DNA of 64,000 bases from Naegleria gruberi (Eukaryota): assembly GCA_000004985.1 (NCBI GenBank), contig GG738887.1. One strand, 5' to 3'. This document shows positions 14,197 through 46,340 of this stretch, in pieces; within the stretch, counting starts at the first letter, position 1; each line of letters opens with the position of its first letter. A program made the translations under genes and the position numbers. Below the pieces are notes generated by a model that was not told where the DNA came from, ran no database searches, and worked only from the letters and a program-made list of their open reading frames with translations.

Positions 14197-15946
14197 ATGG
14201 AATCATCATCATCGGAAAATTTAAAAAGCAAATGGGAAGTGAATAGGAAAAGTTGTCTCATAACAAGTACTTCTGCGGATGCTCCTCGACTTGAAATTTA
14301 TATAAAGAGGGGAGTTAATTTGGCTTTTAGAGAAAATAATGGTATGTTTAAACGAGTGATGATTTTACTAATAATAATAATTTATAATAATATTAATTAT
14401 TTATTTATACTTCTCATCAATCATCATCATCAATAATTAGATCCATTCCTTGTTGTGTGGTCTCATGCAAGATCGAGTGCAACCTCTGATTATTATACGA
14501 GTAGAAAATTAAAATCAAAGACAGCTAAATCATCAGCTAATCCAGAGTGGAGAGAAGTTTTTGAGGTGAGTTGTTTTGTATTGGTCAATCTAAATAATAT
14601 TATTTAAATTATTATTATTTTGTAATAATTATTAAACTTTTAGGTATCTGTTACTTGTGACGACAATAATAATCCACTTGATACAATTTCAATTTATATA
14701 TGGGACAAGGATAATTCTAAATTGGACGATTTCTTGGGATCGGCTGATATTCCACTTTCGACAATTATTAGAGATAGGGAAAATGTAATGAGTCTTCCAT
14801 TGGATGGAGTAGAAAGTGGACAACTTGATATTGTAGTATATCCTCACAATTTCGGAAAGGAAGATTCTTCTAAAATTGAAATTTCTGCATATCTGAACTC
14901 GTCACTCATTCAAAATTTAGGAGGTGGAACTGCTCCATCAATTAAGAATGTTTCAAGTTTTTTAAATACCAAGAAGGATAGTAAATTGAATAATAGATAT
15001 ACCATTATTAGAAACTTGGAAAAGGGTGGTTTTGGAATTGTAAGTTTTGGTTTCTTTGGAGCTGGATTTGACATTTTTCAAAGGTGTTTGTGGTAAAGGA
15101 TGAGAAAACAGGAGAAGAAAAAGCTTTAAAGAAAATCATGTGTAAAACATTGGAAGACGCCAACAGAGCAATCAAAGAAGCATGGCCATTTAAGAGCTTG
15201 GTTCATGAAAATCTTGTATTATATGAAGATATGTTTTTGGATGTTGAACAAAATATGGGAGAGTTTATATTCTATGTTTGTTATATTATGCCATTCTATA
15301 AACAAGGAGATTTGCATGCTTTATTAGAAGGAAAGCAAAGATCAAAGCCAAAGAAATATTTTAAACCTGTAGTATTAGCAAATTGGATTGTTCAAATAGC
15401 CAAGGGCATTGAATATCTGCATAATTATAAGGTAGTTCACAGAGATTTGAAACATAAGAATATTTTCTTTACCGAGGGATACAAACAGTTAAAGTAAGTT
15501 TTCACATAATTATGGAACTAACTGATATCTATTTAAATAGGATTGGAGATTTTGGCTTTGCAAAACAAGTAGAAGAAGGAAGAGCTTATACTCAACTTGG
15601 AAGTTCAGGATATATTGCACCAGAAATTCAGACCTCCTCTTCTGGTTATGGGCTTGGTGTAGATATTTGGAGTTTTGCAGTCATGGTCTATGAAATGATT
15701 ACATTGAAAATTGGAAGAGAACAAATCTCTCATGCCATACTGGCTCAATATAACTTTGATGATTATTGGAAGAATAATATTGAAGCTGAGGTCAAGAAAG
15801 CTTATCCTGATCCACAAATACATTCTTTACTTATCAACTTTTTGAGTAAGACACTGCGGATAGATCCTAACGAAAGAGCTAGTGCATCCGAATGTGTGAA
15901 AATGGCTAGAGAACTCAGACAAATGTTTGTTGAAAAGGAAAAATAA
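14197..15946 (+). CDS. C2 domain-containing Ser/Thr protein kinase (five exons)
   Basis: Exon model join(14197..14341,14441..14565,14644..15039,15084..15493,15541..15946), with introns of 99, 78, 44 and 47 nt (GTATGT/GTGAGT/GTAAGT donors, TTAG/TTTAG/AAAG/ATAG acceptors). The N-terminal C2 domain is LEIYIKRGVNLAFRENNGDPFLVVWSHARSS…NPEWREVFEVSVTCDD…IYIWDKDNSKLDDFLGSADIPLSTI. The kinase has the G-loop EKGGFGIVFVV, the lysine motif ALKKI, the catalytic loop HRDLKHKN, then DFGFAK and GYIAPE. Confidence 0.75.
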
Positions 15947-32429: not shown

Positions 32430-34802
32430 TTAATTTTGTAAAAATATTGTAGGATTTGTTATTTGGTCTAAAAGTTTGATTTTGATATCTGATAATGGAA
32501 ATAAAGATAAAAAGATATCCTTATTTTCTACAATAAATGTATAATGATCGAATTTTTCTCCATCTGGTAGCACCTCAATAACAATCACTGACTTGGTTGA
32601 TCTATCGACATTCTTTAGAGCTCTTGAAATTCCAGAACAAATTCTTGTAAAGTACACGTACTTTTGTGGAGTATAATCTTCGCCATTGCAAGTGTCTTTC
32701 TCATCTGGCCATCGAATATTATCCACAGTTCTGTTGAAGAAAGTTTTTTGAATGTATGAGGATAATATTGGAATAATAGGAAACATTGAAATACTAATCA
32801 ATTCCAAGACTTGGAAGAAATTAGATGAATAATCTTGCTTGAGTCTTCTCTTGAGTTTGGTTATCCTCTTCAGAGTAAGGAGAATATTACGAAAATCTTT
32901 CAGTATTTGATGGTAACCTTGGTTTTCATAATTTTTCTTAGAGCTTTCCATAAATTGATAGATTTGAATCTCAAATATTGATCCAATATATTTTCATGAA
33001 TTGGAAAGTGATCCTATTTTCTTACTCTTCCTCAGAATTTCTCCTAAAAGTGAATTAAGCATCATTCTATCATATTCCTTATCGTAGTTACGAATATTGG
33101 AAAAATTAAACATGTTGATAAAGTCTGGAAAACCAATATCATAATGAATCATTGATTTTGGAAATGACATAGACCTTCTTCTTGGATTATCTAAAGAAGG
33201 GAAATTATAATAAAGGAATCTATATGGTTGCTTTCTAAAATATGAAGAAAAACTTGCTAAAAAAAGGCCCTCTTTTTGATAGTTTAGGATGTGAATATTA
33301 GTGTGATGTAAAACTCTCTGTTGCAGAGTGTGGAAAATTGTTCCATTATGTGATTGACAGACAGGGTTTAGAATATACTCCCATATCTCATCAGTCAATT
33401 CGTCCAATCCAATGTGATTCTCCTTAAAGAAAATGAAACACAATATAAATGCGCTTGATATCAAATAATTGTACAAACGTTCTTTTGGTGTAAACTCTGC
33501 ATTTCTGGAAATAATAATCTTTTTCTTTCTTCTTATCAAGTTCTTAATTTTCATATCAGTGATTTGGTTATCAGGTAACCATTCTCTAATGCCATCGAGC
33601 ATTAAACACCACCTATTTTCTAATGATACTGTATTTTTTGTTGAATACGTTTCTCCAACAAATCCATAATCAAAGCCCAAATCTCTTTCAATTAGTATTG
33701 ATCTTACTCTTTCTGCAATTTCAAATTCATTACCTGGTTTCTTTTCTACTATTTTGGATCTCAACATCTTGCTGGAAATGTTTACATCAAGGTGAATTGT
33801 CACTGGTAAATCCAAGTTATGAATATTGAACACTTCTCTCTCATATTGTTTGCCAGCAAATGTTGTTTCAATATAATAATTAACTTCATCCATGGATTCG
33901 AACTTTCTAGAGTTGAACTGTAAGATTTCACGTTCTGATTGGTTTGGACAATACTTATCCAAGAGAGAATACCAGTAATTCGAATAGCAAGTGTTTAGCT
34001 TGTGAGTATAGTAGTTATTCAGAACAATGAAAAGATCATGTGGAATAATACTACAATTAACTCTAGCTTCACTAAAACAAATTGGACTCAATATCATAAG
34101 ACAACTTCCTATCCTTTGATTTTGAAGTGCTAAATTATCTGCAAAGTTTCTATTACACAATATTAATTCATTTCCATTTGTTTCGTACAGTCTCAACTCA
34201 TTGTACACTATTTCACAAACAACACAAGAAAACAAGTTTTGCAATCCACCATTACACACCACAGGAATATAAATAGGATAATCATTATATGATTCCAATT
34301 CCATTGGGTATGGCTTTTGTAAATACATTTTAACTATTGTTTTCTGTAAAACTTGCATTTGATAATTAGAATCAAATGTTGGTACTTTTTGAATTAATTT
34401 CCTCTTCCTCATTGCTCTGTGAACAAAATCTCCAAAACTCTGTAAGTAAGATTCAATTTCATCAAAGTAAATTCTAATATTCCTAGAAAAGTGTTGAAAA
34501 CAATGCAAAACAGATTGCTTGTACGAATCTGGGAGTTCCTCTCCATTACAACGTCTAATAATGATGATCGGAGTGCAACTTTCACCCTTCAATTTCTTTA
34601 ATTTATATTGAATATCGACTAATTGTGCCTGTCTATATTGATGAATAGTAAGATTGTGAACATCTTTATCCTCCACAATAATTGTGGTCGAGATGATCAT
34701 CATTGATTGAAGTGTATTATTATTGGGTATTAATTCTTCCTGTTCTTCTTCGTGATGACAATATTCTTTACCCTGCAAAATGTGTTCCATTTGTGATGAC
34801 AT
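32430..34802 (-). CDS. Hypothetical protein: 602-aa ORF (32994..34802) followed 42 nt later by a 173-aa same-strand ORF (32430..32951), possibly exons of one gene
   Basis: ATG at 34802. A GTAAGA sits about 20 nt before the stop of the first ORF, so a short intron could join the two. No recognisable domain. The gene borders a scaffold gap. Confidence 0.35.
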
Positions 34803-34839: not shown

Positions 34840-34924
34840 NNNNNNNNNNNNNNNNNNNNNNNNNNNNNNNNNNNNNNNNNNNNNNNNNNNNNNNNNNNNN
34901 NNNNNNNNNNNNNNNNNNNNNNNN
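34840..34924. other. Assembly gap (85 N)
   Basis: Run of n read directly. Confidence 1.
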
Positions 34925-39309: not shown

Positions 39310-40166
39310 TTCTTAATTCATTCATATTGGAAAATTCACCATTAGTGAATTTTATTGATGATCACTAAGATTTTTTTCCTTAATGATCGGAATGACGATA
39401 TTGCTGATAAAATAAATGATAAAGTGAAAGTTCCAGAACTCAAATTAAGTGGAAAATTTCCAATCACCATTACACAAGATGAGAACTTGAAGATTATGAT
39501 GAAGACAACAACAACTAGTGGTGAATGTTTCAACAATACACCTTACTGATAAGGAACCAACAACAATGGAAAAACAATTAGACACAACAATTAACAATTG
39601 AAGTAATTAGAGGCTTAACATTCTCATCCACTGAAAAATCAAATGAAACAATATCCAGTGCCACCAATTCACTTTGGAAAGGAAAAATCCAGGACAACAT
39701 TTGCACGATAAGAATGAGATAGCTCAATTTTTATTGATCTACTTGTTCAGTTAGCAAATCTGATAAAACTGCAACCTTATTCACAACGATATCAACCCCA
39801 AAATATGATAGATACTACTTGTTTATCGATTATGATTCTAATAAATTCTAGGACTGTAGATTGATACAACAACAGAAGAAACAAACAAATTAATCAACAA
39901 ATTAGGAAGATATTTGTAAAGTTTGGAAATCTAATTGGTTACTCCCTCCCACAATTTATCCGAAATGGTTAACTATCATAACCATCACTTAGCGTGATAA
40001 GGAAACAAAAGAAAATGTTCGACAATCATCGAGTCTTTTACCCACTCCAGAGCAGGCTCTTTCGAATCCTCTTCCTTCTCCTTCCACTTTTATTTTACTG
40101 TTCATGTGAAATTATGAAAATCACAAGTGAATTGACTAGATCAAATACTCAACAAATGATGAATAG

Positions 40167-40391
40167 NNNNNNNNNNNNNNNNNNNNNNNNNNNNNNNNNN
40201 NNNNNNNNNNNNNNNNNNNNNNNNNNNNNNNNNNNNNNNNNNNNNNNNNNNNNNNNNNNNNNNNNNNNNNNNNNNNNNNNNNNNNNNNNNNNNNNNNNNN
40301 NNNNNNNNNNNNNNNNNNNNNNNNNNNNNNNNNNNNNNNNNNNNNNNNNNNNNNNNNNNNNNNNNNNNNNNNNNNNNNNNNNNNNNNNNNN
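40167..40391. other. Assembly gap (225 N)
   Basis: Run of n. Track ORFs 39994..40437 (+) and 40136..40483 (-) are artefacts spanning it. Confidence 1.
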
Positions 40392-40448
40392 TTTATATCA
40401 TCTCTCAATAATGGTACTGTTAAAACAATTGGAATAACTTTTGTAATA

Positions 40449-43400
40449 ATGGCATCTGACAATAATTTTTGTGATTTCCACATGACAACACTGTATGATT
40501 CATTGATTAATTATGAATTATTCTTTGTAAAACATCAGGCTGTGGCAAATGTGGTTTTGTCCTGTCAAAAGACAAATGGAACTAATTTATTTGAGGAGAG
40601 AGCTGACATTTCACATTTATACTTTCAAAAGTTGGTATTCTATATGATTGTAATGAAGAGTTGCTCACCCATGTCCTTATCATTGATTCAAAGTCAATGG
40701 TCATCTGTAGGATTTTTTATTCAGTCATTTACAGAAAAGTCCAGTTGTTTAAACGAAACTCAACCTTCTATATTTGGAAATGTACTAATTGACAGCTCCC
40801 ACATTTCAAATTCTGTAATATTTTTCAAATACTCTAATCTGATTAGGTTGAATTATGTTTCCATCATGGAGATTGTGCATTGTCTTTTAGTTTCTCTGAA
40901 AAATTACTCGCCACAAATATCCTATTCGATTCCACAGGAATGTTCTTCACTGAGAGAGTGAAACAACTACATTTCTCCAATTACCAAAGTATTGGTAGGA
41001 CCTCAAGAACATACTTGACAGCATTTGGTAGAATTGTGATGAAAAACTCCATTTTCAGAGATTATGTCTATAACTTTCCATCACTCATTATTGAGAATGG
41101 AAATGTTGCTCAATTGAGTGAAATAGTTGCTTTATCCAATACTATTTGGGCTTCTTTTAGATATATTGATAATTTTTCTTTAAAGAATGTCAAAGTGACT
41201 GGAAATCAAATTGTGAATGTCAAAATGACATCTGATAGTCCAATAACAATTACTAATTGCAATCAGATTACAATTGCTGACTCTTTCTTCAACAAGAACG
41301 TTGGATACATTGGAGGGAGTATCCTAATTAATGAATATATCAATATTGACCTGTTTAACAACACCTTTACAAATTGTAAATCTTTTAAAAAAGGAGGAGC
41401 CCTCAATATTGAAAACTATCAACAATCATCACTCATTACTCAAAGTACTATCAATATCATGAGCAATACCTTTGAAAATAATTGGAGCTCAACTGTTGGA
41501 GGTGCCATTTCAATTTTAACAGCCAATCAACTCTATGTGAAAAATAACATTTTCAAAAGAAATGCTGCAAACTCTGCAGGTGGAGCATTTGCCATCACGA
41601 CACATGTCATTAAAGGAGAGTTGGAATCGTACTTTGAAGATAACAGTGTCACTGGCTCATTTCATTCCTTGAATAATTCACAATACTCCTCTGATTCGAA
41701 TCTTTATTTGATGGGAGCTGGTGGAGCTTGTTTGATTCTAAATATGCCGCAGTTTAGTTTTGTCATATCTAGATCTGTATTTGTGGGAAATGAGGCTGAG
41801 AAAGGAGGAGCTGTTGCATGTGGAGCTGACTCGTTGAAAACATCTAAACAGTTAGTTCAAGAATGCAAATTTAGTGAAAATAGAGCTTCCAAAATAGGAA
41901 ATGCTATTTATTTTATTAGACCACAAAGTGTAAACGTAATTGATCAGGAAGTGAGTGGAGATCAAGAGTTATTCTCCTCAACTCCTACAGTTTTTGAAAT
42001 TTTAGAAATGCAACCAAATATAGTATTCCCTGGACAATCAATTTCCTTAACAGTATATTTGGAGAATGTTTTTGGAAATGTTGTGAATGTCACTACTCAA
42101 AATATAATGTTCAGTGCTCAGGATGTTTTTGAAACTTTCCTTAGATATTCACCAAACAGTAATTCCTCATTATTATTTACTCCCTATGCCAAAACAAGTA
42201 ATGTCAAAGATTCTGTTCAGAATTTAACACTTTACTCTGAAGATGGTCGATTGAGTAGAGTTTTATCCTTCACACTAACTGATTGTCCTTCGGGGTTTAT
42301 CATGGAAAAGACAGTTTTCAACTCATTGTTGGTATACGAATGTAAAATTGACACTCGACTGAATGTCAAGTTACTAATTGGTCTCATTGTTCCTCTTGGA
42401 CTCATTGTCTTGGTGATTGGTATCATAATCGGCTTGCTGACCTTCTTAATTATCAGATTTGTCTTTGCACAATTGAAAATGTTAAGAGAAAAACAAAAAG
42501 CAGAAAAAAGTTTGGAAATGCGAATAATTGACAAGAAGGTCATTTTCAATTCTTTTGAAAATACATCACATAATGATTTATCAATTCCATTAATTGATGA
42601 TTCAGCTGAAAAGGAAAAGAAACCATCTTTTATTATTCCAATAGAAAGTATTGAAATTATTCGAAAGCTGGCTGAAGGTGGTTTGGGAATTATTTATCTT
42701 GGTAAATTGTGGAAGAAAATTAACATTGCCATCAAATTATTGAAATCAGACGAGCAAGATGATGAATTTGAACAGGAAGTTTCACTTCTGAGCTCTTTAA
42801 GACATGACAATATTGTGACATTTTATGGAATTTGTGTCACTGATCAAGGAAAGTACATGATAACAGAGTTTGTGGAGAAGGGATCGCTCGATAGGACTCT
42901 ATACAAGGCAAGAATAGGTGAAATTGATTTGTCTCTCCATCAAAAGATTTCCATTCTCATAGCTACAGCCAAGGGAATCGAATATCTTCATTCATTAACC
43001 CCAGTAGTTGTGCATCGTGATTTGGTAAGTTTCTTAATTACAGTGGAATAATTAGTAATTGTCAACAGAAACCTGGAAATATCCTACTAGACGATAAGAA
43101 TATTGCCAAGATTTGTGATTTTGGCTTGTCAAGAGTTGTGTCAACCACAACAATGCAAAGTGTCATGACTACCAATTTGGGAACTTTATTCTATTGTCCA
43201 AGGTATGTTGTTTTTTGTTAACATTTGTTGACATTTTTGAAAGTGAGGTGATTGAGGGACCAACTGAAACAAATTTGGCCTCTAAACAAACAGCTACAAA
43301 GATAGATGTCTATAGTTTTGCAATTATCATGTGGGAAGTTTTTTTCGAGCTGGTTCCTTACTCTACAAATGTCGAAAAATTGATTCCACAATTTGAAATT

Positions 43401-43682
43401 TCCAAGCAAGAGGAAGAAGCTCTCAAAATTAATGGTTTCAACATTCCATATTATGTAGTGAAGGGTGTGAGACCATTTATTCCTTTCAAAACTGATGAGC
43501 AAATACGAAAGTGGCTGGAACTCTACATGCCAAACGAATTGAAAAATTCAGAAATTATTCTAATTGTTAAGACTTATTTCACAATAATGAAACAAGCATG
43601 GTCTCACAATGCCACAAAAAGACCTACCATCGATTCAGTTCGATCAGAATTGGAACAATTGGAAGAATTGTTAAGAATCTAA
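40449..43682 (+). CDS. Receptor-type TKL protein kinase with Pmp-like parallel beta-helix repeat ectodomain
   Basis: Exon model 40449..about 40900 (frame break relative to 40880..), then join(40880..43024,43069..43202,43244..43682) with introns of 44 nt (GTAAGT...CAACAG) and 41 nt (GTATGT...GAAAG). The ectodomain has repeated GGA[IL]/FxxN units (GGSILINEYINIDLFNNTF, GGALNIEN, GGAISILTANQLYVKNNIFKRNAANSAGGAFAI, GGACLILN, GGAVACGAD). The TM is LLIGLIVPLGLIVLVIGIIIGLLTFLII. The kinase has ILGKLW..IAIKLL, HRDLKPGNILLD, DFGLSR and VYSFAIIMWE. Confidence 0.7.
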
Positions 43683-44087: not shown

Positions 44088-46340
44088 TTATAATTTCATT
44101 TCAAAAGGAGAGGTTGTTGGATAGGCTACTCCAATATTATTAGGAGTGGTTCTCGAGTTGTATAATAAAATATTCATTTCTTCCCTGCTTGAGAGAAGAA
44201 GTGACTTGATTTCTTCCAGCTCTTGCCTGATAAAGCCAGATTGTCTTTGGTGTTCCTCATTTATGTGTGCAGAGGCTGTTGCAGCAGAACCTTTGTATTT
44301 GGAGGAGAACGTCTCTTTGAATCGCTGGTATTTTTGATTGGATTGATAATTTTTTTCATCAAGATATCTAGTATCAGGAATGTAAGGTTTAAAGTTGATT
44401 TTTTCCTTGATGCTTGGCCTTTCAGTTTCGGTTGACTTTGCGATGAACAATGGTTTGGAAGATGCCTCTGTTTGTGTTTTTGATGAATAACTGGTAGTAG
44501 AGTTGGAGGAAGTTGGGGGTGTTCTTGAAATATTGGATGGTGGTGGAATGTTTGATCTTGGAAATGATGAAAAGGAAGAAAGAGGTCGTTGAGGAAAAGC
44601 TTGAGCATATGGATTTCTAAAGTACGCAAGAGGTGGTGGATAATAAGGAACAAAGTTGGGAGAGTAAAAGTTACAATTACAATGATCACAACACAAGTTG
44701 CTGTGAGCTTGTGGAGGAATATTTCCATTATTGGTGCCCTGATAATTGGTGTTGAAAACTTGGGAATGGTAAGCTGTTTGAGTTGCATATGTTCTCGAAT
44801 CTTTTGTGAGATCATCAGTCCCAATAGATATACTCTGGACATCCTTTGGCAGAGGAGGTTTTTCTCTCTCAATAGTAATTATTCTATTCGATTCCCTATT
44901 ATCTTTGGAAGGAAGATCCAATTCAGTTTCGTGAACAATTTCTATTTTTCTTTCTGTTCTAATTGGAATCTCGATAACTCTTTCCATATTTCGTTCAACT
45001 ATTGGTTCCGATATCATCTGCTCTGCTTTCTTAATGATAGGTTTTGGCTCTTTTTCAGGAATTATTGTCTCTTTCGAGATCTCTTTTTGTTTAGGCAATG
45101 GCTCTTCCTCAACTTGTTTTGAGCTTGTTGTTGGAGATGGTGTTCTTGAAGCAGGTATAACAGTCTCTGCGTTTTGTGGCTTTTGCAAAGATACGACTTT
45201 AACTGGTTCCTTTTCCACTTGCTTTTGAACTGCAACTTGTTCTGATTTCTTCGGTTCTGGCTTTTTAATTGGTTTTTCTGGTTCAGGTTTCTTAATAGGC
45301 TCTGCGGCTGGTTTTGGTTTTGAGGTAGTTGGAATGGTTATTGGTTTTTGTGGTTCCTTCTTTGGAGGAGGCTTCACCTCCTCTTCTTCATCATCAAAGT
45401 CATCGAAACTGTCATTGCTGTTATCTAAAAAGTTATCTTCAAACGATTCATTATCATCAAAATCACTGAATTCATCCTCGTCCTTCTTGTGTGTATGGGA
45501 GGGTTTGTGGTGATGATCCTCATCGTCCTCAATCTCCTCTTCAAAATCATCAAATGAACTTTCCTGTGTAGAGTTGTGACCATTATCGTTTTCTTCAATT
45601 ATTTCCTCATCTCCAAAATCTGAAAAGTCATCCTCACTAAAATTTTCTTCCTCACTCATTACAAAATCCTCTTGAACAACTCGAGCAGGTTCTCTGTAGA
45701 GTGGTTTTGGTTTTACTGGCTCTGGTTTTTTAATTGGTTGTTGAGCTACAGCTGGTGACTTAGCATGTGTGCCAACGGGATTTGGAGAGGGTGTCTTCTT
45801 GGGCTGTTCTTTGACTGGTGGTTGCTTTTTCACCACAACTACAGAAGGGGAAGGATCTTCTCCTCCCTCCTCATCTGAAAAATCAGAAAACTCATCAAGT
45901 GTCTTTACATTAAACGAATCATTCTCACTGGATGAAGCATACTCGGTCTCTATAACTTGTTTCTTATTTACATTTGTTGGCTTAGTGTTTTTTTGATGAT
46001 TATTATTTGAAATTGTCGGTTTGTTAGTAACAACTGGTTTCGGAAGTTCGTCCTCATCCTCATCATAATTTAATTTTACAGATTTTTGTGATCGTTGAGA
46101 GCTAGAAAGAGTTGGTGAAGGATTGGTTGGAGTAGGTGTTCGTGAAGCAATTCCAAACATTGAATTTACTTTCTGAAACATGTTTCCGAAGTTTGATGTT
46201 GAAGAGCCGTGAGAGGCATGCGATCCATTCGAAGACGAAGAATGTGATCGTCTCATCATTGCATACGGATCATTTCCAATAATCGAACCAGATGAGTAGG
46301 CATCAAATGAGGCTGCAACTGGTTGAGGCTTTTTTTTCAT
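44088..46340 (-). CDS. Low-complexity P/E/D/S/K-rich acidic protein (750 aa)
   Basis: Long ORF with strong compositional bias (EPxKP repeats, DEE/FSDFDD acidic blocks) and a Q/N/Y-rich C-terminus with a CCDHCNC motif. Opposite-strand ORFs 44146-45996 are shadows of this bias. Confidence 0.4.
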   Translation of the reverse strand: MKKKPQPVAASFDAYSSGSIIGNDPYAMMRRSHSSSSNGSHASHGSSTSNFGNMFQKVNSMFGIASRTPTPTNPSPTLSSSQRSQKSVKLNYDEDEDELPKPVVTNKPTISNNNHQKNTKPTNVNKKQVIETEYASSSENDSFNVKTLDEFSDFSDEEGGEDPSPSVVVVKKQPPVKEQPKKTPSPNPVGTHAKSPAVAQQPIKKPEPVKPKPLYREPARVVQEDFVMSEEENFSEDDFSDFGDEEIIEENDNGHNSTQESSFDDFEEEIEDDEDHHHKPSHTHKKDEDEFSDFDDNESFEDNFLDNSNDSFDDFDDEEEEVKPPPKKEPQKPITIPTTSKPKPAAEPIKKPEPEKPIKKPEPKKSEQVAVQKQVEKEPVKVVSLQKPQNAETVIPASRTPSPTTSSKQVEEEPLPKQKEISKETIIPEKEPKPIIKKAEQMISEPIVERNMERVIEIPIRTERKIEIVHETELDLPSKDNRESNRIITIEREKPPLPKDVQSISIGTDDLTKDSRTYATQTAYHSQVFNTNYQGTNNGNIPPQAHSNLCCDHCNCNFYSPNFVPYYPPPLAYFRNPYAQAFPQRPLSSFSSFPRSNIPPPSNISRTPPTSSNSTTSYSSKTQTEASSKPLFIAKSTETERPSIKEKINFKPYIPDTRYLDEKNYQSNQKYQRFKETFSSKYKGSAATASAHINEEHQRQSGFIRQELEEIKSLLLSSREEMNILLYNSRTTPNNIGVAYPTTSPFEMKL

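What the first reader, a model, noticed from the sequence alone, without database searches (positions are those of the whole stretch)
40449..43682. Receptor kinase whose ectodomain is built from Pmp-type (GGA[ILV]/FxxN) parallel beta-helix repeats
The extracellular region has more than eight copies of the GGAI…FxxN unit typical of Chlamydia polymorphic membrane proteins and other bacterial beta-helix adhesins. A single TM and an intact TKL-type kinase follow (HRDLKPGNILLD, DFGLSR). A receptor pairing a bacterial-like adhesin fold with a tyrosine-kinase-like domain is an unusual design. It could have arisen by horizontal transfer of the ectodomain, or it could act in recognising bacteria as prey.
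Basis: partly seen in the sequence, partly recalled or inferred. Interest (0 to 1): 0.5.

Follow-up and report, generated by a model that had tools for sequence, protein, structure and literature searches.

The report
Naegleria receptor kinase with beta-helix ectodomain
This is a real Naegleria gruberi gene for a single-pass membrane kinase whose outer part is a beta-helix built from the FxxN/GGA repeats first named in Chlamydia; the pairing is rare and unstudied, but both parts are ordinary eukaryotic building blocks and nothing points to recent gene transfer.

Summary
The window is Naegleria gruberi. The finding matches annotated gene NAEGRDRAFT_70904 (XP_002673889, 'predicted protein', 1038 aa).

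**Confirmed**
- The ectodomain has 6 GG[AS]h motifs where shuffles give 0.1, forming 6-7 FxxN/GGA rungs, not more than 8.
- One transmembrane helix follows, then a kinase with all catalytic motifs. Its closest solved relatives are CTR1, TNNI3K and TAK1 (TKL group).
- One continuous exon spans helix, transmembrane segment and kinase N-lobe, so this is not a fused gene model.

**Pmp assignment**
- Pfam Chlam_PMP is below threshold on this protein (14.4 bits against a 20.6 cut-off).
- It passes in the N. gruberi paralogue and in N. lovaniensis homologues. A profile of the family hits Chlam_PMP/Beta_helix proteins at 1e-55.

**Context**
- A relative also occurs in Willaertia.
- Pmp-type helices also front 7TM receptors and trichomonad surface proteins in other eukaryotes, and a bacterial kinase in reversed order.
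- The ectodomain carries an intron and has host-like base composition. Horizontal transfer and prey sensing remain unsupported.
- The annotated 5' end is probably cut off by an assembly gap.

Verdict: a new variant of protist receptor kinase, of moderate interest.

The parts
40015..40166 (+). Candidate first exon with a signal peptide (MFDNHRVFYPLQSRLFRILFLLLPLLFYCSC...), running into the assembly gap. Inferred, not in the annotation.
   Evidence: An ORF with a hydrophobic N-terminal core (12-residue hydropathy maximum 2.7) lies directly upstream on the same strand. Homologues P0004, P0005 and P0217 have hydrophobic N-termini and about 150 further N-terminal residues that the annotated model lacks.
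40167..40391 (.). Assembly gap (225 N) that interrupts the 5' part of the gene.
40392..40846 (+). N-terminal ectodomain exon. The frame is open from the gap edge, and the annotated start is ATG 40449. The exon ends at 40814 in the annotated model or at 40846 in my alternative.
   Evidence: Both intron solutions are GT..AG (32 nt and 44 nt). This part of the structure model has low confidence.
40868..41920 (+). Right-handed parallel beta-helix, about 13 rungs (P0001 residues about 130-480).
41264..41926 (+). Pmp-type part of the helix: 6-7 rungs carrying paired FxxN and GG[AS][ILVFC] motifs.
   Evidence: Positions are invariant across the family alignment. A Chlam_PMP stretch is found at protein residues 345-359.
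41927..42370 (+). Membrane-proximal beta-rich stalk with a conserved PGQ motif and a conserved Cys before the membrane. Its fold is undetermined.
   Evidence: It is conserved in P0004, P0005, P0030 and P0217 and aligns with the 7tm_3 receptor P0003. AF2 confidence is low in two attempts.
42371..42454 (+). Single transmembrane helix, followed by a basic cytoplasmic stretch.
   Evidence: This is the only 19-residue window with hydropathy above 2.0.
42455..42652 (+). Cytoplasmic juxtamembrane segment (about 65 residues).
42653..43682 (+). Protein kinase domain with the stop codon. It is interrupted by introns 43025-43068 and 43203-43243. It contains IAIK, a conserved alpha-C Glu, HRDLKPGN and DFG, and about 45 extra residues in the C-lobe.

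Best explanation
The gene encodes a type I, single-pass receptor-like protein kinase of Naegleria gruberi.

**Anatomy**
- The extracellular part is a right-handed parallel beta-helix. Its last 6-7 rungs are held together by buried FxxN and GGA[ILV] motifs, the 'Pmp' repeat (Pfam PF02415).
- A beta-rich stalk, one transmembrane helix and a short juxtamembrane segment follow.
- The cytoplasmic part is a catalytically competent TKL-like kinase. Its HRDLKxxN catalytic loop is the Ser/Thr type.

**Family.** It belongs to a small heterolobosean family: at least two genes in N. gruberi, two in N. lovaniensis and one in Willaertia magna.

**Proposed mechanism (inferred, not shown).** The helix surface or its variable loops bind an extracellular ligand or surface. 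Occupancy or clustering brings the kinase domains together. Phosphorylation then starts a cytoplasmic response.

**Origin.** The FxxN/GGA motifs are structural, not binding, elements. The ectodomain is a eukaryotic module that has been combined with different membrane signalling parts, not a recent bacterial import.
For: **Gene and organism.** The window is N. gruberi and the gene is annotated there. One uninterrupted exon (40847/40891-43024) encodes helix, stalk, transmembrane segment and kinase N-lobe.

**Kinase.** Pfam hits are 1e-44 and 4.5e-43. All catalytic motifs are present, here and in the relatives. The closest solved kinases are CTR1, TNNI3K and TAK1.

**Repeats.** The motifs are far above chance and invariant in the family alignment.

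**Pmp homology.**
- Chlam_PMP passes its threshold in P0030, P0004 and P0005.
- The single-sequence exhaustive search finds 413 relatives. The best outside the family carry Chlam_PMP at 120-307 bits.
- The family profile hits PF02415/PF13229 proteins at 1e-55 to 1e-20.

**Role of the motifs.** In Pmps the motifs are buried rung-core elements, with loops exposed (PMC10715098).

**Divergence.** Ectodomains are 26-32% identical against 39-55% for the kinase domains, as expected for a ligand-facing part.

**Module reuse.** The same helix+stalk cassette occurs on a 7tm_3 receptor (hhalign 98.6%, E 1.4e-15).
Against: - No ligand, localisation, expression or kinase activity is known, and no paper mentions the gene.
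- A signal peptide is not demonstrated, because the 5' end is lost in an assembly gap.
- Pfam Chlam_PMP is below threshold on this protein itself.
- The first glycine of the G-loop is Ala (AEGGLG).
- The stalk fold could not be predicted.
- The beta-helix fold is shared with many glycan-degrading enzymes, so a binding role is not the only option.
- Family size is a lower bound. The searches are clustered or word-limited, and N. fowleri was not seen separately.
Confidence: 0.7

Rival explanations
1. The ectodomain was acquired by horizontal transfer from a bacterium (a Chlamydia-like or other Pmp-bearing lineage) and fused to a resident kinase.
For: - The repeat is abundant in bacteria and archaea, and many hits are bacterial or archaeal proteins with prokaryotic anchoring modules such as T9SS tails, autotransporter barrels and Big domains.
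- Amoebae live with chlamydiae (general knowledge).
- Horizontal transfer has been proposed for the trichomonad Pmp-like genes (PMC6701047).
Against: - The ectodomain-coding part contains a spliceosomal intron.
- Its GC (0.295 for 40001-42000) is at or below the window's 0.29-0.38 range, so it is not bacterial-looking.
- The whole cassette is shared by N. gruberi, N. lovaniensis and Willaertia.
- Top non-family hits mix proteins on eukaryote-like contigs (helix+7TM), Bolivina, Bryopsis, bacteria and archaea, with no nesting.
- The stalk is shared with a eukaryotic 7tm_3 receptor.
- No Pmp middle or autotransporter domain is present.
- Trees of short repeats are unreliable (PMC6701047).
Confidence: 0.1
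2. The beta-helix is an enzyme (glycan lyase, hydrolase or epimerase) tethered to the surface, and the kinase reports or regulates that activity rather than ligand binding.
For: The best structural matches are capsule depolymerases, GH110, GH87, PL6 lyases and AlgE4/AlgG epimerases.
Against: - Those matches have 5-17% identity and reflect the shared fold only.
- There is no sequence match to any solved enzyme and no Pfam glycosidase or lyase family.
- Sequence relatives are Pmp-type repeat proteins, in which conserved residues are structural (PMC10715098).
- Adhesins (PfbA, Vag8) score equally well.
Confidence: 0.07
3. The protein is chiefly an adhesion or phagocytosis receptor for bacterial prey. 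The helix sticks to bacterial surfaces and the kinase triggers engulfment.
For: - Chlamydial and trichomonad Pmp-type proteins are reported to promote adherence (PMC10715098, PMC6701047).
- Naegleria feeds on bacteria (general knowledge).
- The ectodomain evolves faster than the kinase.
Against: No data bear on the ligand. This is a special case of the main explanation, not an alternative architecture. The family is small (about two genes per species), unlike expanded prey- or host-recognition families.
Confidence: 0.2
4. Annotation artefact or pseudogene: the gap, the uncertain first intron and the missing signal peptide mean that the locus does not make a functional receptor.
For: - A gap lies at 40167-40391 and the annotated model has no signal peptide.
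- There are two possible solutions for intron 1.
- An exact-sequence look-up of P0001, and of the exon-2 ORF read from its first Met, found no other assembly or sequencing-run contig carrying them.
Against: - There is about 3.1 kb of open frame with three clean GT..AG introns and intact catalytic motifs.
- The same full architecture, with hydrophobic N-termini, is found in P0004 and P0217.
- A plausible signal-peptide exon lies just upstream of the gap.
Confidence: 0.04

Closest known systems
Trichomonad Pmp-like surface proteins (e.g. TVAG_249300; Handrich et al. 2019, PMC6701047)
   Same: Both are eukaryotic type I membrane proteins whose N-terminal ectodomain is made of FxxN/GGA[ILV] repeats. 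A single transmembrane helix replaces the bacterial autotransporter.
   Different: The trichomonad proteins have a short cytoplasmic tail with endocytic motifs (NPx[YWF]) and an ATPITK motif. The Naegleria protein has neither and instead carries a roughly 380-residue tail with a kinase domain.
Chlamydial polymorphic membrane proteins (Pmp, type V autotransporters)
   Same: Both have paired FxxN and GGA[ILV] motifs at rung periodicity in a predicted right-handed beta-helix, with loops of variable length between rungs.
   Different: There is no Pmp middle domain and no autotransporter barrel. Only 6-7 motif-bearing rungs are present, against 9-25 in Pmps. The protein is eukaryotic, its gene contains introns, and the helix is anchored by a transmembrane helix and coupled to a kinase.
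Protist and plant receptor-like Ser/Thr (TKL/RLK) kinases, e.g. Entamoeba transmembrane kinases and plant RLKs
   Same: The topology is the same: extracellular repeat domain, one transmembrane helix and a cytoplasmic TKL-like kinase. Solved plant kinase domains of receptor and Raf-like types (CERK1, CTR1) are among the nearest solved kinase domains.
   Different: The ectodomain is a Pmp-type beta-helix, not LRR, LysM, lectin or CXXC-rich repeats (0 CxxC motifs). The family is limited, as far as seen, to Naegleria and Willaertia.
Bacterial Hanks-type Ser/Thr kinase with an extracytoplasmic Pmp beta-helix (P0225, metagenomic)
   Same: It has the same two modules and one transmembrane helix, and Pfam finds kinase plus Beta_helix plus Chlam_PMP.
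   Different: The order is reversed (kinase at the N-terminus, helix at the C-terminus). The kinase is a bacterial type rather than TKL, and the combination was evidently assembled independently.
Beta-helix + 7TM receptors of uncultured eukaryotes (P0003 with 7tm_3; the P0221/P0219/P0011 family)
   Same: They have a Pmp-type helix ectodomain. For P0003 the membrane-proximal stalk also aligns with the Naegleria family (hhalign 98.6%).
   Different: The signalling part is a seven-helix membrane domain instead of one helix plus kinase.

Membership tests
Pfam PF02415 Chlam_PMP repeat proteins (Pmp-type beta-helix) | Repeated, paired FxxN and GGA[ILV] tetrapeptides at rung spacing | tested here: met
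   There are 6 GG[AS]h motifs against 0.10 in shuffles (0 of 5000 reach 6). Four strict FxxN-(3-9)-GGAx pairs are present against 0.004 expected. Spacing is 27-47 residues.
Pfam PF02415 Chlam_PMP repeat proteins (Pmp-type beta-helix) | Whole-protein score above Pfam's gathering threshold (20.6 bits) | tested here: not met
   This protein scores 14.4 bits, E 0.048. Homologues pass: P0030 48.1, P0005 43.9 and P0004 36.8 bits.
Pfam PF02415 Chlam_PMP repeat proteins (Pmp-type beta-helix) | Sequence homology to proteins that carry the repeat | tested here: met
   phmmer finds 413 hits. The top non-family hits carry Chlam_PMP at 65-307 bits. The family profile hits PF02415/PF13229 proteins at 1e-55 to 1e-20.
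Pfam PF02415 Chlam_PMP repeat proteins (Pmp-type beta-helix) | Right-handed parallel beta-helix fold | tested here: met
Chlamydial Pmp autotransporters (type V secretion) | C-terminal autotransporter beta-barrel and Pmp middle domain | tested here: not met
   Pfam finds neither at E up to 1. A transmembrane helix and a kinase follow the helix instead.
Eukaryotic protein kinases, TKL-like | Pkinase / PK_Tyr_Ser-Thr domain with the catalytic Lys, alpha-C Glu, HRD, catalytic Asn and DFG | tested here: met
   PF07714 scores 1e-44 and PF00069 4.5e-43. IAIK, EFEQEV, HRDLKPGN and DFGLS are present. The G-loop is AEGGLG, with the first Gly replaced by Ala.
Eukaryotic protein kinases, TKL-like | Placement in the TKL group by kinome phylogeny | tested here: inconclusive
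   The best solved matches are TKL members (CTR1 1e-31, TNNI3K, TAK1, RIPK2), but tyrosine kinases (BTK, CSK) score almost as well. No tree was built.
Type I receptor kinases | N-terminal signal peptide | tested here: inconclusive
   The annotated N-terminus has none, and the 5' end runs into an assembly gap. A signal-peptide-like ORF lies at 40015-40166. Homologues P0217, P0004 and P0005 start with hydrophobic segments.
Type I receptor kinases | One transmembrane helix between the ectodomain and the cytoplasmic kinase, with positive residues on the kinase side | tested here: met
   One search finds a single hydrophobic segment, followed by RFVFAQLKMLREKQK.
Type I receptor kinases | Ligand-dependent kinase activation | not testable with these tools
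   This needs biochemistry.
Trichomonad Pmp-like proteins | Short cytoplasmic tail with NPx[YWF] or an acidic cluster, and the ATPITK motif | tested here: not met
   Neither motif is present. The tail is about 380 residues and contains a kinase.

The most novel reading that the evidence does not exclude
The Pmp-type beta-helix plus stalk is a portable sensing cassette of protist receptors. Heterolobosea wired it to a TKL kinase, and other eukaryotes wired it to 7TM domains. In Naegleria it would detect a surface polymer of bacteria or of other cells and control feeding, adhesion or differentiation. That would define a previously unrecognised class of eukaryotic receptor ectodomain.
Probability: 0.25. 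Interest if true: 0.6.

Novelty: new variant of a known kind. Interest (0 to 1): 0.35.

Why it matters
Receptor kinases outside animals and plants are poorly charted, and almost nothing is known about how Naegleria senses its surroundings.

- **A candidate receptor family.** A lineage-specific family with a beta-helix ectodomain gives concrete candidates for sensing prey, surfaces or other cells. This matters for N. gruberi and probably for its pathogenic relative N. fowleri.
- **The repeat's name is misleading.** The 'Chlamydia' repeat is a general structural solution used in all three domains of life. Its presence in a eukaryote is not evidence of gene transfer.
- **An annotation fix.** The annotated gene model is probably 5'-truncated by an assembly gap.

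Tried and rejected
- **NCBIfam** scan of the ectodomain gave no hit.
- **PDB sequence search** with the ectodomain profile found nothing.
- **Stalk structure**: a second AF2 run on the stalk alone gave pLDDT 48.5, so I did not search with it and I do not call it Ig-like.
- **Synteny** with the N. lovaniensis locus of P0004 was absent, so I do not claim orthology.
- **Closing the gap**: exact look-ups of P0001 and of the exon-2 ORF in other assemblies or read sets found nothing.
- **Literature**: searches for Naegleria with Pmp, Chlam_PMP with kinase, and the locus tags and accessions found no paper on this gene or this architecture.
- **Paralogue cluster in the window**: rejected. No other ORF in the 64 kb has 3 or more GGA motifs, and the neighbours are unrelated.
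- **AF2 solenoid artefact**: considered and set aside. It concerns near-perfect repeats, PF02415 was explicitly validated by four methods, and these rungs are diverged.
- **Technical oddities**: the exhaustive representative search did not return the query's own protein. The word-indexed profile searches did not return P0004, P0005 or P0030. Family size is therefore a lower bound.
Full report
**What is at the coordinates**

The window is low-GC eukaryotic DNA (about 0.33) with very short GT..AG introns. The ectodomain query identified it as Naegleria gruberi. The annotated product of this locus is P0001, also known as EFC41145 / XP_002673889 / NAEGRDRAFT_70904 / UniProt D2VPL5. It is a 'predicted protein' of 1038 aa that starts at the same ATG (40449) and ends at the same stop (43682) as the finding.

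My own exon model is as follows:
- Exon 1 runs from 40449 to 40846. The annotated model ends it at 40814.
- Exon 2 runs from 40891 (annotated 40847) to 43024.
- Exon 3 is 43069-43202.
- Exon 4 is 43244-43682.

The last two introns are 44 and 41 nt. For intron 1 there are two GT..AG solutions, 32 or 44 nt, which I cannot decide between without RNA data.

The large exon 2 is one uninterrupted frame. It encodes the beta-helix, the stalk, the transmembrane helix, the juxtamembrane segment and the kinase N-lobe as far as HRDL. The helix-kinase combination is therefore not an artefact of gene-model fusion.

**Checking the observation**

- **Repeats.** The ectodomain holds six GG[AS][hydrophobic] motifs, against 0.10 expected from shuffling, and none of 5000 shuffles reaches six. 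Four strict FxxN-(3-9)-GGAx pairs are present against 0.004 expected. One more unit is degenerate, FSENRASKIGNAIY. That gives 6-7 paired units spaced 27-47 residues apart, fewer than the 'more than eight' reported.
- **Transmembrane helix.** There is exactly one strongly hydrophobic segment, followed by a basic stretch.
- **Kinase.** The kinase domain is unambiguous (PF07714 1e-44, PF00069 4.5e-43). It has the catalytic Lys (IAIK), the alpha-C Glu, HRDLKPGN and DFG. The only departure is Ala for the first glycine of the G-loop, a position that also varies in the relatives.
- **Kinase type.** The nearest solved kinases are Arabidopsis CTR1 (1e-31), TNNI3K, TAK1 and RIPK2, with BTK and CSK close behind. 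This is TKL-like, with a Ser/Thr-type HRDLKxxN loop. I built no kinome tree, so the group assignment is by similarity only.
- **C-lobe insertion.** The C-lobe carries about 45 extra residues between subdomains IX and XI. This is why the Tyr-kinase model aligns only to position 199 of 258.

**Is the ectodomain 'Pmp-type'?**

Chlam_PMP scores 14.4 bits (E 0.048) against a gathering threshold of 20.6, and NCBIfam finds nothing. Four other lines of evidence support the assignment.

1. An exhaustive phmmer search of 1.84 billion representatives gave 413 hits. The two best cover the whole ectodomain and are Naegleria lovaniensis proteins:
   - P0004, 1273 aa, with helix, transmembrane helix and kinase.
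   - P0005, 806 aa, ectodomain only.
   - A third full-length relative, P0030, is an N. gruberi paralogue (XP_002670288, NAEGRDRAFT_74710).
2. These relatives pass the Pfam threshold for Chlam_PMP at 36.8, 43.9 and 48.1 bits.
3. The next-best hits are proteins carrying Chlam_PMP at 65-307 bits, some also with Beta_helix at 84-258 bits. A profile of the four Naegleria ectodomains hits 67 proteins, nearly all annotated PF02415 and/or PF13229, at E-values down to 1e-55.

Foldseek gave the same fold class but only weak scores. No solved structure is a sequence relative.

A known AF2 bias towards beta-solenoids concerns near-perfect repeats. For PF02415, four prediction methods agree (PMC11795689), and the rungs here are diverged.

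According to Debrine et al. (PMC10715098), the FxxN and GGA motifs are buried core elements of each rung, and the exposed loops are the likely binding parts. The motifs therefore identify a structural type, not a function.

**Family and distribution**

A profile of full-length family members also recovered a Willaertia magna protein, P0217 (1145 aa). It has a clear signal peptide, GGA rungs, a transmembrane helix and a kinase.

Ectodomains are 26-32% identical while kinase domains are 39-55% identical. The outer part evolves faster.

The N. lovaniensis locus shows no conserved gene neighbours with the window, so I do not call P0004 an orthologue. The window holds no second Pmp-like ORF, and the neighbouring genes are unrelated: a methyltransferase, a glycosyltransferase-like gene, an amidase and a HAM1-like gene.

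**How unusual is the design?**

It is less unusual than the name 'Chlamydia repeat' suggests.
- **Trichomonads** have expanded families of Pmp-like proteins with the same repeats, one transmembrane helix and a short endocytic tail (PMC6701047).
- **Other eukaryotes.** Repeat-bearing proteins turn up in the foraminifer Bolivina and the green alga Bryopsis.
- **A 7tm_3 receptor.** P0003, from a metagenomic contig, aligns with the Naegleria family over both the helix and the stalk, up to the conserved Cys before the membrane (hhalign 98.6%, E 1.4e-15).
- **A helix+7TM family.** Twelve more of the best hits (P0221, P0219, P0011, P0016, P0022 and others) are long Pmp helices followed by a mutually homologous six- to eight-helix membrane domain with no Pfam match. 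The two whose contigs I looked up (P0221, P0219) lie on contigs with eukaryote-like sparse coding.
- **A bacterial kinase.** P0225 has the two modules in the opposite order: N-terminal Hanks kinase, transmembrane helix, then an outer Pmp helix.

The helix is thus a widely used extracellular module. What looks specific to Naegleria and Willaertia is its coupling to a TKL-like kinase.

**Horizontal transfer and prey recognition**

I found nothing that favours a recent bacterial origin.
- The ectodomain-coding part has an intron.
- Its GC is at or below the window range.
- The cassette predates the split of Naegleria and Willaertia.
- The nearest non-family hits are a mixture of eukaryotic, bacterial and archaeal proteins. 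Their scores mostly track repeat number.
- The domains specific to chlamydial Pmps are absent.

An ancient transfer cannot be excluded. It is hard to test with short repeats, a point also made for trichomonads. Prey recognition is plausible for a bacterivorous amoeba, but no data bear on it.

**Most likely mechanism**

The anatomy is shown. The function is inferred:
- The protein is a type I receptor-like kinase.
- A ligand or surface bound by the helix face or loops drives clustering or a conformational change.
- The kinase then phosphorylates Ser/Thr, possibly with dual specificity as in some TKLs.

Rival readings rank lower, for the reasons listed under each: a tethered glycan-degrading enzyme, recent horizontal transfer, and an annotation artefact or pseudogene.

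**Annotation problem**

The reading frame is open from the edge of a 225-N gap (40167-40391), upstream of the annotated ATG. The relatives have about 150 more N-terminal residues, including a conserved CG.SP..ACPSL cap and hydrophobic N-termini. Immediately upstream of the gap, on the same strand, lies an ORF beginning MFDNHRVFYPLQSRLFRILFLLLPLLFYCSC, a typical signal peptide. The true gene therefore probably starts near 40015 and crosses the gap. This is an inference. Attempts to find the missing sequence in other assemblies failed.

**Verdict**

The 'bacterial-like' and horizontal-transfer framing is not supported. The gene is an uncharacterised member of a small heterolobosean receptor-kinase family with a Pmp-type beta-helix ectodomain. 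I class it as a new variant of a known kind, of moderate interest (0.35). No publication on it was found.

Noticed in passing
window 40015-40391: A 225-N assembly gap sits inside the 5' part of the gene. A signal-peptide-like ORF (MFDNHRVFYPLQSRLFRILFLLLPLLFYCSC) lies just upstream of it. The annotated model (start 40449) is therefore probably 5'-truncated.
   Followed up: partly
window 40815-40890: There are two alternative GT..AG solutions for intron 1: the annotated 40815-40846 (32 nt) and 40847-40890 (44 nt). They give different 10-20 residue stretches in a low-confidence part of the ectodomain.
   Followed up: partly
window 34840-34924: A second assembly gap (85 N) abuts the start of a 602-aa minus-strand ORF (32994-34802) that has no Pfam hit.
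   Followed up: no
window ~15400-15600 (+): There is another protein-kinase-like gene, with HRDLKHKN at 15438 and DFGF at 15548 in different frames, which implies an intron between them. It has no Pmp-like ORF nearby.
   Followed up: no
window 44088-46340 (-): The convergent neighbour is a 750-aa ORF rich in Pro, Glu, Asp, Lys and Ser, of low complexity, with no Pfam family.
   Followed up: partly
P0221, P0219, P0011, P0016, P0020, P0022, P0029, P0074, P0088, P0120, P0190; loci L003 8001-12269 and L004 8001-13262: This is a sizeable family of 1100-2100-aa proteins: a long Pmp-type helix followed by a mutually homologous 6-8-helix membrane domain that matches no Pfam family. The two looked up (P0221 in L003, P0219 in L004) are single ORFs on large metagenomic contigs with eukaryote-like sparse coding. 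In L004 another beta-helix gene lies next to it. It may be an undescribed helix-fronted 7TM receptor family.
   Followed up: partly
L002 851-3839: P0003 combines a Pmp-type helix and stalk with a class-C-like 7tm_3 domain. The ORF just upstream (851-1564) is also Beta_helix and is probably an earlier exon of the same gene. The source organism is unknown (JGI metagenome 3300010052).
   Followed up: partly
P0225 (metagenomic, 55-kb contig): This bacterial-type Ser/Thr kinase has an N-terminal kinase, one transmembrane helix and a C-terminal Pmp/Beta_helix domain. It has the same two modules as the Naegleria protein, in reverse order.
   Followed up: partly
P0226 and its cluster (1351 aa): This is another receptor-like TKL kinase from an unidentified eukaryote. 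Its N-terminus has two or three GGAIS motifs, followed by a different, Cys-rich ectodomain. Its relation to the Naegleria family is unclear.
   Followed up: no
window 43320-43620 (kinase C-lobe): About 45 extra residues lie between kinase subdomains IX and XI. The insertion is shared, at variable length, by the N. lovaniensis, N. gruberi and Willaertia relatives.
   Followed up: no
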